Source: the human T2T-CHM13v2.0 reference genome, Homo sapiens. From it: a stretch of DNA of 64,000 nucleotides. The notes beneath the pieces are model-generated. The model was not told the origin of the DNA. It searched no databases and saw only the letters and a program-made list of their open reading frames with translations. Of the stretch, positions 3,600 to 9,894 are shown in pieces. Location: assembly GCF_009914755.1 (NCBI RefSeq), contig NC_060926.1; one strand, written 5' to 3'. The position numbers were made by a program, and so were the translations under genes. How positions within the stretch are numbered: the first letter of the stretch is position 1; each line of letters begins with the position of its first letter.

Positions 3600-3788
3600 T
3601 TCTTTCTTTCTTTTTCTTTCTTTTTTTTTTTTTCAGACAGTTTTGCTCTTGTTGCCCAGGCTGGAGTGCAATGGCGAGATCTCAGCTCACTGCAACCTCT
3701 GCCTCTTGGGTTCAAGCAATTCTCCTGCCTTAGCCTCCTGAGTATCTGGGATTACAGGTGCCCACCACCTTGCCCAACTAATTTTTGT
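3600..3788 (-). mobile_element. Alu right arm (AluSq-like), host of the HERV-H insertion
   Basis: CTCTTGTTGCCC and GCAATGGC diagnostics; ends at the linker AATTTTTGT. Confidence 0.9.
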
Positions 3789-3796
3789 GTGTGTGT

Positions 3797-4093
3797 GTGG
3801 TGGATTATCATAGGCGGTGGAGTTAAGAGCAATGTTTTGCGGGTGGGGGTGGATCTCACAAAGTACATTCTCAAGGGTGGGGAGAATTACAAACAACCTT
3901 CTTAAGGGTGGGGGAGATTACAAAGTACACTGATCAGTTAGGTTGGGGCAGAAATAAATCACAATCATGGAATGTCATCAGTTAAGGCTATTTTCACTTC
4001 TTTTGTGGATCTTCAGTTGCTTCAGGCCATCTGGATGTATATGTGCTAGTCACAGGGGATATGATGGCTTAGCTTGGGCTCAGAGGCCTGATA
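3797..4093 (-). mobile_element. LTR7B-like (type II) U3 segment, the 3' LTR remnant of HERV-H
   Basis: Minus strand starts TATCAGGCCTCTGAGCCCAAGCTAAGCC, contains repeated TTTGTAATxTCCCCACCCTT units, and ends ...CCGCCTATGATAATCCACCAC followed by (CA)n. R and U5 are absent. Confidence 0.88.
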
Positions 4094-4842
4094 TTCCTGT
4101 CTTCTTATATTGATAAGAAAAACAAAACAAAATGGTGGTGAAGTGTTGAGGTGGCGAAAATTTTGGGGGGAGGTATGGAGAGATAATGGGCGGTGTTTCT
4201 CAGGGCTGCTTCAAGCGGGATTACGGGCGGCGAGGGAACCTAGAGTGGGAGAGATTAAACTGAAGAAAGATTTTGGGGCAAGGGGTGATATTGTGGGGCT
4301 GTTAGAAGGAGCATTTATCGTATAGAATTATTGGTGATGGTCTGGATGCGATTTTGTATGAATTGAGAAACTAAATGAAAGACACAAGGTCCAAATAAGA
4401 GAAGGAGAAAAACAGGTGTTAAAGGACAAAGAATTGGGAGTACCCAGGACATCCAATTACAAAGCGTCCAAGGGGGTTCAGCATAATTACTTGCTTGGTT
4501 GGCACAAGTTTAGGCTCTATCCTTGAGTTTTTTTATGTTGTCATATACCATGCCAGATTGATTTAGGTAAAAACAGCATTCTTCATTTAAAAATATACAG
4601 TCTTCTTTTTTTAGCAGTGACTAAGTCGAGGCCTTGGCAATTTTGGAGGAAAGAGAAATGCAAAGCCAGCAATTGTTTGTTAAAGAAGGATTAGAAATGG
4701 CTAGGAAAGAGTGAGTTTGATATTGTGGTGGAGATAGCTGGGGAGAGGTAGAGGGTGTCATAAGAACGGGAATGAGAATTAGAGTAAGTATAAAAGTAAA
4801 GTATAGGACTTCATCAGGGTGAAAGTATTGGAGTGTACTTTG

Positions 4843-5217
4843 TCACTGAAGATATTCTATCCACTTAAAGAGAGACTTAAGGGTGGCAGTTTGAGGTAAA
4901 ACCAGGCGCCACTGAATACCAAGAGACTGATAAACTGCTTCGGTGATTTGACTAATAAAGGCCGGTGTGTTATCAGATTGTATCAAGGTGGGAAGGCCAA
5001 ACCAAGGAATTATGTCTGACAGAAGGGAAGAAATGACCGCGGTGGCCTTCTCAGACCCTGTGGAAAAGGCCTCTACCCATCCAGTGAAAGTGTCTACCCA
5101 GACCGAGAGGTATTTTAGTTTTCTGACTCGGAGCATGTGAGTAAAGTCAATTTGCCAGTCCTGGGCAGGGGCAAATCCCTGAGCTTGATGTGTAGGAAAG
5201 GGAGGGGTCCTGAACAA
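4843..5217 (-). pseudogene. HERV-H integrase core fragment
   Basis: ORF with WQIDFTHM...VWVDTFTGWVEAF...IQSDN, the first two acidic residues of the DDE triad. It is truncated downstream. Confidence 0.9.
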
Positions 5218-5481
5218 TACCTGAGGGGTAGTAGAATAGCAGATGGAACACTGAGAAGTGATTTCCTTGAGGATAGATTTCCATGATGGAAAGGAAATGA
5301 GAGGTTCTAAGAGATGGGCTAGCAGCTTGTAACCTACATGGAAGAGGTTATGAAATGACGACAGAATAGAATGGGCCTGTGAGGCTGGAAGGAGATATTT
5401 TCCTTGGTCTAAGAACCATTTGCCTTGTGTGGGAAGAGATTGATAGGTGGAAGTTTCAGCGGGGGAGTAGGTGGGAGTGAC

Positions 5482-5960
5482 CTATGATGAGGAGAAAAAC
5501 TGGCCATGAGGGACAGAAGTTTGAATTCTAGCTGCTTCTTTAGCTACCTTATCAGCATAAGCGTTGCCCTGAGCGATGGGATCTGATGCCTTTTGGTGGC
5601 CCTTGCAGTGTATGACTCCAGCTTCCTTTGGAAGTAAAGTGGACTTGAGAAGAGTTTTTATTAAAGAGGCATTAATGATGGAGGACCCTTGTGTAGTGAG
5701 GAAACCTCTTTCAGCCCCTATAATAGCATGGTGGTGCAAGATAAGGAAGGCATATTTAGAGTCAGTATAAATATTGACACATAGTCCCTTTGCAAGGGTG
5801 AGGCTCCGAGTTAAGGCAATGAGTTCGGCTTGCTGAGAGATAGTGGAGGGGGGCAGAGTGGTAGCCTCAATGATAGATGTGGAAGATACTATAGCACAGC
5901 CTGCCTTTGCTAGTGCGTGGCGATTAGGCCGGGTGGAACTGCCATCAATAAGCCAAATGT
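5482..5960 (-). pseudogene. HERV-H RNase H fragment
   Basis: ORF 5482-5739 contains VIHCKGHQKASDPIAQGNAYADKVAK. The upstream part is frameshifted. Confidence 0.85.
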
Positions 5961-7658: not shown

Positions 7659-8907
7659 TCAGTCTTCAGCCGCTAAGCCAAGAAGATCTGGGAAGGAGTC
7701 AGTCAGAGAGCCTTGGGCCAGAGTTCCAGGGGCTCTGGGAGTGGCTGCCGGGCGAGTTGGACAGTCTGATTTCCACTGGGGTCCCACACAGATGGGACAC
7801 GGCTTAGGAGGAATTCCAGGCTGCAGGCATTCCTTGGCCCAGTGGCCAGATTTCCGGCACTGGAAGCAAGATCCTGGGGGAGGCGGTCCTGGAGGAACAC
7901 CTGGCCGCTGCGGTTCAGGCGTTTTGAAGTTCTTGTGTGCTGGAGATGTGGCTGGGGTTTCTCTCACAGTGGAGGCAAGTAATTGCAACTCAGAAATACG
8001 TTGCCTCTACTCTATTATTGTACACCTTGAAGGCGAGGTTAATTAAGTCCTGTTGTGGGGTTTGAGGGCCGGAATCTAATTTTTAGAGCTTTTTCTAATG
8101 CTGGGAGGGGATTGGGTAATAAAATGCATATTAAGAGTAAGGCAGCCTTCAGGAACTTCTGGGTCTAGGGTGGTAAAGCGTCTAAGGGTTGCTGCTAATG
8201 GGCCATGAACTGGGTTGAGTTCTTATATTTGATAAAAAAGAGCCTAAACGCTAACTGATTTGGGAGAGGTCGGATAAAGAAAAAGGAGCATTAACCTTGA
8301 CTACGCCTTTAGCTCCAGCCACCTCTTTAAGGGGAAATTTTTGGACAGGTCGGGGAGGGCTAGTCGCGGAACAAAACTGTAAGCCAGACCAGATGTGAGG
8401 AGGGAAGGTGATAGAAGGATTTTAGGGTGGGGGGAGCAGAGGCTGAGGAAGAATTGGGACCTGGCTTGGCCTGGCCAGGAGCAGCCTGGGGAGAAGGGGA
8501 GAGGTCAGATGAGTCCATAGAAAAGAAGGATTCAAAGGACTCAGAGCTTGGGGTGGAGACTGAAGGAACAGACAGGAGAGAAAGAAGAAAGATTTGGGAT
8601 GAGTCTCACTGGGAGCAGAGACTCGGGCGGGACCAATGTGTAAAAGAATGCCTGGATGTCAGGCACCTCAGACCATTTCCCCATTTTTTTGACAAAAATT
8701 ATCTAGATCTTGTAGGATAGACAAATCGAAAGTGCCATTCTCTGGCCACTTGGAACTACTGTCAAGTTTGTATTGGGGCCAAGCGGTATTGCAGAAGAAA
8801 ATAAGACGCTCAGATTTTAGGTCAGGTGAGAGTTGAAGAGGTTTTAAGTTCTTGAGAACACAGGCTAAGGGAGAAGAAGGAGGAATGGAGGGTGGAAGGT
8901 TGCCCAT
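7659..8907 (-). pseudogene. HERV-H gag remnants (matrix N-terminus and nucleocapsid zinc knuckles)
   Basis: MGNLPPSIPPSSPLACVLKNL...IFFCNTAWPQYKL...WPENGTFD in ORF 8668-9060. [14 protein letters not shown] plus a degenerate [13 protein letters not shown] in ORF 7659-7988. Confidence 0.9.
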
Positions 8908-9249
8908 AGTGAAGGAGGCAAGTTTAAAGAGAAGGGTAGAGACACGGAGAAGGGGGGTGGGGAGCAGCTCTGGGCTGCAACGTGGGTGAGCAGCCAAAGC
9001 AGGCGTCCCCGCAGTTGACTTGCCACCAAGGGAATGTGGGTGAATGACCAAGGCAGGCATCCCCGTGGAAATCAGACACCAATGGAACGTGGATGAATAT
9101 CAGAGAGGCATCTCTGCAATGATTAAACACCAAGGGAAGGCTGCCTTCCCAAGTCCGTGACCGGTACTGGAGTTTTGGGTCCACGGATAAAATGTGTGTC
9201 CTTTGTCTCTACCAGAAAATGAAAAGAATTGAAATTAAGAGAAGGGAGA

Positions 9250-9541
9250 GGCCGGGTGCAGTGGCTCACACCTGTAATCCCAGCACTTTGGGAGGTCGAG
9301 GTGGGTGGATCACAAGGTCAGGAGTTTGAGACCAGCCTGGCCAATATGGTGAAACCCTGTCTGTACTAAAAATACAAAAAAATTAGCCGGGCGTGGTGGC
9401 ACATGCCTGTAATCCCAGCTACTCTGGAGGCTGAGGCAGGAGAATTGCTTGAATCCGGGAGGCAGAGGTTGCAGTGAGCCCAGATCGCGCCACTGCACTC
9501 CAGCCTGGGTGACAGAGCGAGACTCCGTCTCAAAAAAAAAA
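9250..9541 (+). mobile_element. Alu (AluSg-like) inserted in the HERV-H leader
   Basis: Full dimer with TSD AAGAGAAGGGAGA at 9237-9249 and 9542-9554. Confidence 0.93.
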
Positions 9542-9766
9542 AAGAGAAGGGAGAGATTGAAGGGTGGTGCCAAGATTGAAAGGAGAAAGAAGTTGAGGGA
9601 TAGTGAGAGAGGTTGGAGAAGAGAGTAAAATGAGGCTGCTTACCCGAATTAAAATCGGTGAGATGTTCCTTGGGCTGGTTGGTCTGAGGACCTGAGGTCG
9701 TAGGTGGATCTCTTCATGGAGTGAGGGTGAGGACAGGGGACTGGTCTCCTGAAGGAGTCCCACTGA

Positions 9767-9784
9767 CCTGGGTCTTCAGCGCCA
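9767..9784 (-). promoter_or_regulatory. Retroviral primer-binding site, closer to tRNA-Phe than tRNA-His
   Basis: TGGCGCTGAAGACCCAGG lies 2 nt after the U5 end (...GAGACA-TT). Confidence 0.65.
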
Positions 9785-9786
9785 AA

Positions 9787-9894
9787 TGTCTCACGTGTCC
9801 ATGTGAAGAGACAACAAAACAGACTTTGTGTGAGCAACATGGCTGTTTATTTCACCTGGGCGCAGGCGGGCTGAGTCCGAAAAGAGAGTCAGTC
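9787..9894 (-). mobile_element. LTR7 R-U5 segment, the 5' LTR remnant
   Basis: Minus strand reads GACTGACTCTCTTTTCGGACTCAGCCCGCCTGC...GAAATAAACAGCCATG...GTGAGACA. It directly abuts the Alu A-rich linker with no U3. Confidence 0.9.

What the first reader, a model, noticed from the sequence alone, without database searches (positions are those of the whole stretch)
3787..9894. HERV-H copy built like an RNA (R-U5...U3), not a provirus: candidate L1-made retrocopy inside an Alu linker
Seen: the 5' end (9894) starts at GACTGACTCTCTTTTCGG with no U3. The 3' end stops inside the LTR and runs into (CA)n AAAAAT. There are no outer TG...CA termini and no 5-bp integrase TSD. The insertion splits an Alu at its A-rich linker, with AAAAAT on both sides. 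Known: in the LTR7 consensus as I recall it, GCTGACTC lies about 30 nt after the TATA box, at the transcription start. Alu linkers are L1-endonuclease targets. L1-made processed ERV copies are well established for HERV-W but unusual for HERV-H. Inference: an unspliced HERV-H genomic RNA was copied by L1 TPRT up to its cap site, and the (CA)n is a decayed poly(A) tail.
Basis: partly seen in the sequence, partly recalled or inferred. Interest (0 to 1): 0.8.

Follow-up and report, generated by a model that had tools for sequence, protein, structure and literature searches.

The report
L1-made HERV-H retrocopy lacking tail
This is a dead copy of a HERV-H retrovirus transcript that the L1 retrotransposon pasted into an Alu; dozens of similar copies exist in the genome, and this one is odd only because its 3' repeat and poly(A) tail are missing.

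Summary
A 6.1-kb minus-strand HERV-H copy (9894 to 3787) splits one Alu at its A-rich linker, with A5-6T duplicated on both sides. It has no 5' U3, and its 3' U3 stops 6 nt before the point where the 5' end begins.

The 5' end is the LTR7 transcription start. At least 16 other genomic loci begin at the same base (15 from the pattern search and one more from the first search), with unrelated upstream sequence. Those examined fully have GG extra bases, U3-R-poly(A) ends and 11-17-nt TSDs at L1-type sites. A separate pattern finds 33 loci with a polyadenylated LTR7 R end. L1-made HERV-H retrocopies are therefore a class of at least 45 loci, not a rarity. I found no description of them in print; a 2017 review calls HERV-W the only L1-mobilised HERV group.

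This copy differs from its siblings at the 3' end, where R, the tail and 22 nt of U3 (TATA region) are missing. No other genomic copy shares this. The (CA)7 junction looks like U3 CCACCAC joined to the R-end CACACA, not a decayed tail. Whether this happened at insertion or later is unresolved.

Verdict: a new member of a known kind, with moderate interest.

The parts
9895..10030 (-). 5' half of the host Alu (left arm up to the A-rich linker), sense on the minus strand
   Evidence: Aligns to positions 11-131 of the Alu at 9251-9545. Inverted-repeat pairs I2 and I3 support this.
9895..9901 (-). 5' copy of the target-site duplication, AAAAAAT, preceded by TTAT. The bottom strand reads TTTTTT/ATAA, an L1-endonuclease-like site.
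   Evidence: Read directly. The duplication is shown by the overlap of the two Alu arms. The L1 EN consensus TTTT/AA is recalled, not from a call.
9893..9894 (-). Two extra bases, GA, before CTGACTC. The equivalent position is GG in all 17 of 17 pattern hits elsewhere.
   Evidence: Reading them as the start G plus a cap-derived G is inference.
9825..9892 (-). R region of LTR7, from the transcription start CTGACTC to the poly(A) site (...GTTGCTCACA). The AATAAA signal lies at 9846-9851.
   Evidence: This is the stretch repeated after U3 in sibling retrocopies, where element positions 3-70 are followed by poly(A). A published R-region primer matches the start (PMC3253121 passages).
9643..9824 (-). 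U5, a degenerate PBS-like stretch (about 9767-9784) and the leader up to a GG|GTAAG splice-donor-like site at about 9643
   Evidence: Read directly. The spliced sibling L075 joins at this point. The PBS comparison uses the primer sequence in PMC3253121, with about 13 of 20 bases matching by eye.
9251..9541 (+). A later Alu insertion inside the leader, in opposite orientation, with a 14-nt TSD AAGAGAAGGGAGAG at 9237-9250 and 9542-9555
   Evidence: Direct-repeat families D1 and D9, the sequence itself, and a private 305-nt insertion relative to L032 and L033.
4315..9099 (-). Degenerate internal region in proviral order: MA (weak) 8668-9099, NC zinc knuckle 7659-8006, protease 7238-7672, RT 6592-7068, RNase H 5482-6117, integrase 4843-5481, env fragments 4315-4842
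   Evidence: Pfam scan of 12 stop-to-stop frames. The region is colinear with full-length siblings L032 and L033 over element positions 645-6085.
3797..4093 (-). 3' LTR, U3 only, from TATCAGGCC to CCACCAC. It carries a private 22-nt deletion between 3810 and 3811 that removes the TATA region.
   Evidence: BLAST to full LTR7 copies, the alignment by eye, and the deletion junction being unique in the genome, 1 of 1 hit being this locus itself.
3787..3796 (-). (AC)5, making (CA)7 together with the U3 end. It sits where R and the poly(A) tail should be.
   Evidence: and the three-way alignment.
3781..3786 (-). 3' copy of the target-site duplication, AAAAAT
3600..3786 (-). 3' half of the host Alu (right arm and A-tail)
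   Evidence: Aligns to positions 124-293 of the Alu at 9251-9545.

Best explanation
An unspliced, full-length HERV-H transcript, started at the LTR7 promoter of a source provirus, was reverse-transcribed and inserted by the L1 machinery (target-primed reverse transcription). The insertion went into the A-rich linker of an older Alu. The cDNA reached the capped 5' end of the RNA.

The result is a promoterless pseudogene. Its 5' end has no U3, and its 3' U3 lacks the TATA region. An Alu later inserted into its leader.

The copy departs from its siblings only at the 3' junction. There, R and the poly(A) tail are absent, U3 CCACCAC is joined to a CA run and the target A-run, and 22 nt of U3 are missing 14 nt further in. 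I read this as one local, CA-microhomology-mediated loss of R between CCACCAC at the U3 end and CACACA at the R end.

The timing of that loss is open. About 55% that it happened during the first steps of L1 reverse transcription (a template jump or a tailless start). About 35% that it was a later slippage or repair deletion.

Shown: the anatomy, the shared start base, the L1 hallmarks of the siblings, and the uniqueness and clustering of the 3' defects.

Inferred: L1 as the agent at this particular locus, the cap origin of the extra bases, and the microhomology mechanism.
For: 1. Shared start base. Among the 30 best genomic matches to 9640-9894, three besides this copy start at CTGACTC with unrelated upstream sequence.
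2. Pattern search. The pattern VVRRCTGACTC... finds 17 places (reversed-pattern control 0), and all 17 carry GG. Of these, 15 have unrelated, mostly A-rich upstream sequence and no adjoining U3.
3. L1 hallmarks in siblings. Four siblings (chr3, chr8, chr12, chr16) have U3-R ending GTTGCTCA followed by 13 to about 30 A, and 11-17-nt TSDs that start in A-runs. One of these is spliced.
4. Polyadenylated R ends. 33 distinct loci carry an LTR7 R end followed by at least 8 A (62 matches, control 0).
5. This locus. A5-6T is duplicated at a TTTTTT/ATAA site inside a single Alu.
6. Start position. It lies 32-34 nt downstream of the TATA box in 24 of 30 loci.
7. Interior. It is colinear gag-pro-pol-env and colinear with two full-length retrocopies.
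8. The 3' defects are private and clustered. The 22-nt deletion junction occurs once in the genome. Of 4 private deletions of at least 4 nt, the two large ones lie in the last 25 nt of 5.8 kb, and the other two are 7 and 4 nt.
9. The copy's own 5' R ends ...GCTCACACAAAG, so a CA run before the A-run is what an R end looks like.
Against: 1. No poly(A) tail and no 3' R, which are defining marks of an L1 retrocopy. Five siblings whose 3' ends I saw keep a tail, and a sixth keeps R with a (TA)n microsatellite in place of the tail.
2. The TSD is only 6-7 nt and low-complexity, shorter than the 11-17 nt of the siblings.
3. The extra bases are GA here, not GG.
4. The 3' end lies within 6 nt of the U3/R border. 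A random deletion or truncation would do that only about 3% of the time by my rough estimate. A model that breaks one circular LTR at a single point would explain it naturally.
5. No orthologous locus could be examined, so the order of events is not shown.
Confidence: 0.85

Rival explanations
1. An ordinary integrase-made provirus that later lost its 5' U3 and its 3' R-U5 through two separate deletions.
For: Deletions do occur in these copies. L032 and L033 carry 7 and 5 private deletions of 4-35 nt, and this copy has a private 22-nt deletion.
Against: Both deletions would have to stop exactly at the outer edges of the provirus, because the two Alu halves abut the element and overlap by the duplicated A5-6T. 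The 5' breakpoint would also have to fall by chance on the base where at least 16 L1-type copies start. The duplication is 6-7 nt of A-rich sequence at an L1-type site. The integrase repeat for HERV-H, which I recall as 5 bp (not from a call), is not seen.
Confidence: 0.03
2. A circular or permuted HERV-H DNA, such as a one-LTR circle, was broken at one point in the LTR and captured at a chromosomal break without L1 reverse transcription.
For: The two ends are almost adjacent in LTR coordinates. Only CCTTT(G) is missing between the 3' stop and the 5' start, and the two LTR pieces share no sequence. This is what a single break in a one-LTR circle would give.
Against: The break would have to coincide with the transcription start used by at least 16 copies that have poly(A) tails or L1-type TSDs. 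The target is an L1-endonuclease-like TTTTTT/ATAA site with a duplication. No second copy with this permuted form exists: searches yielded no further LTR7 copy stopping at this U3 position.
Confidence: 0.05
3. An aberrant product of HERV-H's own reverse transcription, for example a minus strand run to the cap of a second RNA and then trimmed, was inserted at a nick.
For: It would also give a 5' end at the cap site. HERV-H was replicating in the period suggested by the roughly 10% pairwise divergence among copies (the dating is inference).
Against: Such products should carry R-U5 at the 3' end or a PBS-defined end, not a U3 stop. Sibling copies with the same 5' end carry poly(A) tails and long TSDs, which retroviral reverse transcription does not produce.
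Confidence: 0.03

Closest known systems
HERV-W processed pseudogenes made by L1 (Pavlicek et al. 2002, not held and not read; described in Grandi et al. 2016, PMC5016936, passages seen)
   Same: The 5' LTR is reduced to R-U5, starting at the transcription start. The 3' LTR is U3-R. The copies have a poly(A) tail, the TT/AAAA insertion motif and TSDs of variable length (5-15 bp in that paper). The HERV-H siblings found here (chr3, chr8, chr12, chr16) fit this description point by point.
   Different: The family is HERV-H/LTR7. The window copy lacks the 3' R and the tail. In HERV-W the pseudogenes are the majority, 135 of 213 elements. In HERV-H I count at least 45 loci, against roughly 1000-1200 LTR-flanked copies (figure from PMC12228294 passages).
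Tailless retropseudogenes: L1-dependent, 3'-truncated copies without poly(A) but with TSDs
   Same: No poly(A) tail, a 3' truncation, a TSD and an L1-type target. Both the window copy and its closest relative on chr10 fit. The chr10 copy ends at about element position 2893 and has a 14-nt TSD.
   Different: The known examples, as I recall them, are mostly small RNAs and mRNA pieces. Here the template is a 5.8-kb retroviral RNA copied to its cap. A later deletion cannot be excluded for either copy.
Spliced HERV-H elements in genomic DNA (Goodchild et al. 1995; seen only as cited and summarised in PMC11998498)
   Same: They are evidence that HERV-H transcripts were copied back into the genome.
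   Different: According to that summary, those were found among cloned proviruses, that is, copies with LTRs made by the retroviral route. The copies here lack the 5' U3 and carry L1 hallmarks.

Membership tests
L1-mediated processed retrocopy | The 5' end lies at (or is truncated downstream of) the transcription start of the source RNA, with no promoter sequence upstream | tested here: met
   The copy starts at GA|CTGACTC, 32-34 nt after the TATA box of full LTR7 copies, and no U3 lies upstream. At least 16 other loci share the same start.
L1-mediated processed retrocopy | Poly(A) tail at the 3' end, after the natural polyadenylation site | tested here: not met
   R and the tail are absent. 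U3 runs into (CA)n and then the target A5T. Five siblings do have tails.
L1-mediated processed retrocopy | Target-site duplication of variable length (usually 7-20 nt; recalled) | tested here: met
   AAAAAAT and AAAAAT are duplicated, as shown by the overlap of the two halves of one Alu. This is short and low-complexity, so the support is weak on its own.
L1-mediated processed retrocopy | Insertion at an L1 endonuclease motif (TTTT/AA on the nicked strand; recalled consensus) | tested here: met
   The bottom strand reads TTTTTT/ATAA, one departure from the recalled consensus.
Integrase-made HERV-H provirus | Two complete LTRs with TG...CA ends and a short fixed TSD (5 bp; recalled) | tested here: not met
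   The 5' LTR lacks U3, the 3' LTR lacks R-U5, the two pieces share no sequence, and the flanks show an A-rich 6-7-nt duplication.
HERV-H / LTR7 family | Sequence similarity of the LTR and interior to other HERV-H copies, with gammaretroviral gene order | tested here: met
   88-94% identity across the 39 other R-U5 matches scored, out of 2498 first-look candidates. About 90% identity over 5.7 kb to two full-length copies. Pfam domains appear in the order gag, protease, RT, RNase H, integrase, env. No Dfam or Repbase consensus was available, so the LTR7 subfamily was not assigned.
Tailless retropseudogene | 3'-truncated, no poly(A), TSD present, and truncation made at insertion | tested here: inconclusive
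   The first three features are met. Whether the truncation dates from insertion cannot be told without orthologous loci.

The most novel reading that the evidence does not exclude
HERV-H RNAs were a regular substrate of L1, leaving at least 45 loci: full-length, spliced, R-only and LTR7-Alu chimeric copies. This class goes unrecognised in the literature I could search, which names HERV-W as the only L1-mobilised HERV group. The copies are fossil transcripts. They fix the ancestral germline LTR7 start site (G/CTGACTC, with a cap-derived G), the poly(A) site (GCTCA / GCTCACA) and the splice forms at single-base resolution. The window copy and its chr10 relative further suggest that L1 can start on a long retroviral RNA without using its tail.
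Probability: 0.45. Interest if true: 0.55.

Novelty: new member of a known kind. Interest (0 to 1): 0.45.

Why it matters
At this locus, very little: it is a promoterless, degenerate pseudogene in a gene-poor stretch.

At the class level there are three points.

1. It corrects the statement that only HERV-W was mobilised by L1. HERV-H 'provirus' counts and LTR-based dating should exclude these copies, as is already done for HERV-W (PMC6298018 passages).

2. The retrocopies record which LTR7 start site, poly(A) site and splice forms were used in the germline or early embryo of ancestral catarrhines. That is the same tissue context where HERVH RNA is abundant today.

3. The two tail-less copies are natural test cases for how L1 reverse transcription starts on a long structured RNA.

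Tried and rejected
1. Provirus with two later deletions. Rejected because the Alu halves abut the element and overlap.

2. A recurrent class of R-less copies. Rejected. The pattern for a U3 end followed by at least 8 A within 15 nt gave 0 hits. The patterns for a U3 end followed by non-LTR bases gave 6 hits. These were this locus itself, 4 chance matches outside LTR7, and 1 LTR7 with a 2-nt insertion. A further pattern gave 0 hits. These patterns need exact matches, so diverged copies could be missed.

3. The 22-nt U3 deletion as a subfamily trait or a mark of the source element. Rejected, since the junction occurs once in the genome.

4. Finding the 3' ends of 13 more start-site copies by fetching fixed windows 5.2-6.7 kb downstream. 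Only 2 of 13 windows held the end.

5. Literature. Six exact phrases for HERV-H processed pseudogenes or retrocopies returned 0 papers. The broader searches, and the passages read, gave no description of L1-made HERV-H copies. Pavlicek 2002 and Sjottem 1996 are not held, and either may bear on this. No CAGE position for LTR7 was found (on PMC8912925; the search listing).

6. Orthologous primate loci: no primate genome is on hand.

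Full report
**Anatomy**

The element lies on the minus strand from 9894 to 3787. In its own sense the upstream flank is the left arm of an Alu, ending ...CTAAAATTATAAAAAAT. Next come two bases, GA, and then CTGACTCTCTTTTCGGACTCAGCC..., with AATAAA at 9846-9851. There is no U3 at this end.

At the other end, a 3' LTR begins at about 4093 (TATCAGGCCTCTGAGCCC) and runs through U3 to ...CCGCCTA^TGATAATCCACCAC. 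This is followed by (AC)5, then AAAAAT, then TAGTTGGGC, which is the right arm of the Alu. The repeat finder reports no sequence shared by the two LTR pieces.

Stop-to-stop frames on the minus strand hit these Pfam families, in proviral order (12 frames scanned, 9 with hits):
- matrix (weak)
- nucleocapsid zinc knuckle
- protease
- RT
- RNase H
- integrase
- two env fragments

A complete Alu of opposite orientation sits at 9251-9541 inside the leader, with a 14-nt TSD.

**One Alu, and a real duplication**

I aligned each flank separately to the Alu at 9251-9545. The left arm covers its positions 11-131 and the right arm covers 124-293. The two flanks are therefore complementary halves of one Alu. 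The second A-run of the linker plus a T is present on both sides, as AAAAAAT at 9895-9901 and AAAAAT at 3781-3786.

The base before the 5' copy gives a bottom-strand TTTTTT/ATAA. This is one step from the L1 endonuclease consensus as I recall it.

This layout excludes a provirus trimmed by later deletions, because such deletions would have to stop exactly at both outer edges.

**The 5' end is the LTR7 transcription start**

The window's own genome can be searched. The 255 nt at 9640-9894 gave 40 scored matches out of 2498 first-look candidates. I looked at the junction in the 30 that were cut out as loci:
- 24 read TATAAGAAC..ATGATAATCC(C)ACCACCCTTTG|CTGACTC.
- 2 have a different U3, with TATAAAAC.
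- 1 is this copy.
- 3 start at CTGACTC with unrelated upstream sequence ending in GG (chr10:2.99 Mb, chr3:188.19 Mb, chr1:205.15 Mb).

So the start lies 32-34 nt after the TATA box.

I then searched with a pattern that demands non-U3 bases before CTGACTC. It found 17 places, against 0 for the reversed control, and all 17 carry GG. Of these, 15 have unrelated, mostly A-rich upstream sequence. None of the 17 has U3 adjoining: 16 have no U3 match anywhere upstream, and one (L079) has only a weak U3-like match about 780 nt away. The other 2 have an inverted R upstream.

A published primer 'targeting the R region' is the reverse complement of the first bases of the element (PMC3253121, passages).

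**The siblings are L1 products**

I saw the 3' ends of eight siblings:

| Copy | 3' end and tail | TSD and other features |
|---|---|---|
| chr3:188.19 Mb | Full length; U3-R ending GTTGCTCA; about A25 | AAAAGAAATCC |
| chr16:68.77 Mb | About 30 A | AAAAATGAGTGA |
| chr8:89.87 Mb | A13 | AAAAATGATCT(C/T)CA |
| chr12:113.99 Mb | A28 | GAAATATCTGATAC; spliced (element position about 252 joined to about 2111) |
| chr1:205.15 Mb | U3-R, then a long (TA)n tract where the tail should be | not examined |
| chr11:5.69 Mb | A18 | The copy is only GG-R-A18 |
| chr10:2.99 Mb | Stops at element position about 2893 with no tail | 14-nt TSD (AAATAAATAAACCC) inside an Alu tail; this copy is the closest relative of the window copy (94% over 351 nt) |
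| chr3:158.82 Mb (L067) | No clear 3' end found | After the leader, R restarts at about its position 15; not interpreted |

An independent pattern, the LTR7 poly(A) signal and R end followed by at least 8 A, matches 62 times in 33 distinct loci, with control 0. Five of these are the 3' ends of copies already in the start-site set; one of the five, chr22, is assigned by position only.

Adding 15 pattern copies, chr1:205.15 Mb and this copy to the 33 loci, and subtracting the 5 overlaps, gives at least 45 loci. These are exact-match patterns, so the true number is higher.

**What is unusual here**

The 3' end is the unusual part. In a three-way alignment with the two full-length siblings, this copy has four private deletions of 4 nt or more:
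- 7 nt at element position 3259
- 4 nt at position 3516
- 22 nt at position 6083 (the TATA region)
- the loss of everything from CCTTTG through R and the tail, at position 6093

The two large deletions lie within the last 25 nt of 5.8 kb.

The 22-nt deletion junction occurs once in the genome. No other LTR7 copy stops at this U3 position:
- 0 hits for a U3 end followed by poly(A).
- 6 hits for a U3 end followed by other bases. One is this locus, 4 are chance matches outside LTR7, and 1 is an LTR7 with a 2-nt insertion.
- 0 hits for the remaining base classes.

The 3' defect is therefore a one-off, and probably a single local event.

**Reading the junction**

The copy's own 5' R ends GTTGCTCACACAAAG. 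Sibling tails begin after GCTCA or GCTCACA. An intact 3' end would therefore read ...CTCACA(CA)AAAA....

The observed junction is CCAC(CA)7AAAAT. That is what one expects if U3 CCACCAC were joined to the R-end CACACA through CAC microhomology, with some growth of the CA run. A tail decayed into (CA)n is not needed to explain it, though the chr1 copy shows that tails in this family can turn into dinucleotide repeats.

Two observations favour an insertion-time event:
- No tail A's survive beyond the target's own A-run.
- The closest relative, on chr10, is also tail-less with an intact TSD. Two later deletions each ending exactly at the TSD would be a coincidence.

I cannot exclude a later deletion, and the orthologous loci would decide the matter. 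I put insertion-time at about 55% and later deletion at about 35%.

The fact that the 3' stop lies only 6 nt from the 5' start in LTR coordinates is what a broken one-LTR circle would give. However, that model has to place its break by chance on the start base shared with the L1-type copies, and it has no second example. I give it 5%.

**Age (inference)**

Pairwise identity among the three full-length retrocopies is 89.4-90.4% over 5.7 kb. If their sources were similar, each is about 5% from its source. That is of the order of 25-35 million years at commonly used primate neutral rates (recalled). The host Alu is older and the internal Alu is younger.

**Literature**

I found no description of L1-made HERV-H copies:
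- Six exact phrases returned 0 papers.
- The broader searches and the passages I read did not mention them.
- A 2018 study of proviral variation excludes L1-made copies for HERV-W only (PMC6298018 passages).
- The defining features of HERV-W pseudogenes given in PMC5016936 match the HERV-H siblings.
- Goodchild et al. 1995 reported spliced HERV-H among cloned proviruses; I saw this only as summarised in PMC11998498.
- The original HERV-W paper (Pavlicek 2002) and the LTR promoter paper (Sjottem 1996) are not held and might mention HERV-H copies or the mapped start site.

**Verdict**

The L1-retrocopy reading is well supported for the 5' end and the target site. 'Built like an RNA' and '(CA)n is the tail' are not supported as stated. 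The copy is one member of an apparently undescribed but unsurprising class, with an odd tail-less 3' end.

Noticed in passing
L064 (G000:C1:53315115, +) and L065 (G000:C3:90149541, +): At two loci the GG|CTGACTC start of R is preceded by an inverted copy of R (...TTTATTTCACCTGGGTGCAGGCG GG CTGACTC). This forms a head-to-head R palindrome centred on the start site. It could be a twin-priming or hairpin product.
   Followed up: no
L074 (G000:C11:5691116, -): A retrocopy that consists only of GG, R (about 70 nt) and A18. It is a copy of a short transcript that started and was polyadenylated within a single LTR7.
   Followed up: partly
L072 (G000:C9:27012969, -) and L079 (G000:C19:42779186, +): In both loci GG-R-U5 runs to about position 100 (...GCATGAAA) and then continues directly into the 3' part of an Alu. 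These could be retrocopies of LTR7-driven read-out transcripts, or template-switch chimeras.
   Followed up: no
L031 / L073 (G000:C10:2997989, -): This is the closest relative of the window copy (94% over 351 nt). It starts at GG|CTGACTC inside an Alu tail and stops at element position about 2893 with no poly(A). It is flanked by a 14-nt TSD, AAATAAATAAACCC.
   Followed up: partly
L075 (G000:C12:113998713, +); possibly L080 (G000:C22:28203624, +; 3' end about 2.8 kb downstream): L075 is a spliced HERV-H retrocopy. The leader donor (GG|GTAAG position) is joined to element position about 2111, followed by part of U3, R, A28 and a 14-17-nt TSD. The chr22 copy is also much shorter than full length.
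   Followed up: partly
L067 (G000:C3:158820067, -): After R-U5-leader up to about position 249, the sequence restarts at R position about 15 and continues through U5. I did not interpret this structure.
   Followed up: no
window 9237-9555: A full Alu on the plus strand at 9251-9541 inserted into the HERV-H leader after the retrocopy formed. It has a clean 14-nt TSD, AAGAGAAGGGAGAG.
   Followed up: yes
L033 (G000:C1:205155094, -), 3' end: The poly(A) tail of this full-length retrocopy is replaced by a long (TA)n/(TG)n microsatellite. This shows that tails in this class can turn into dinucleotide repeats.
   Followed up: partly
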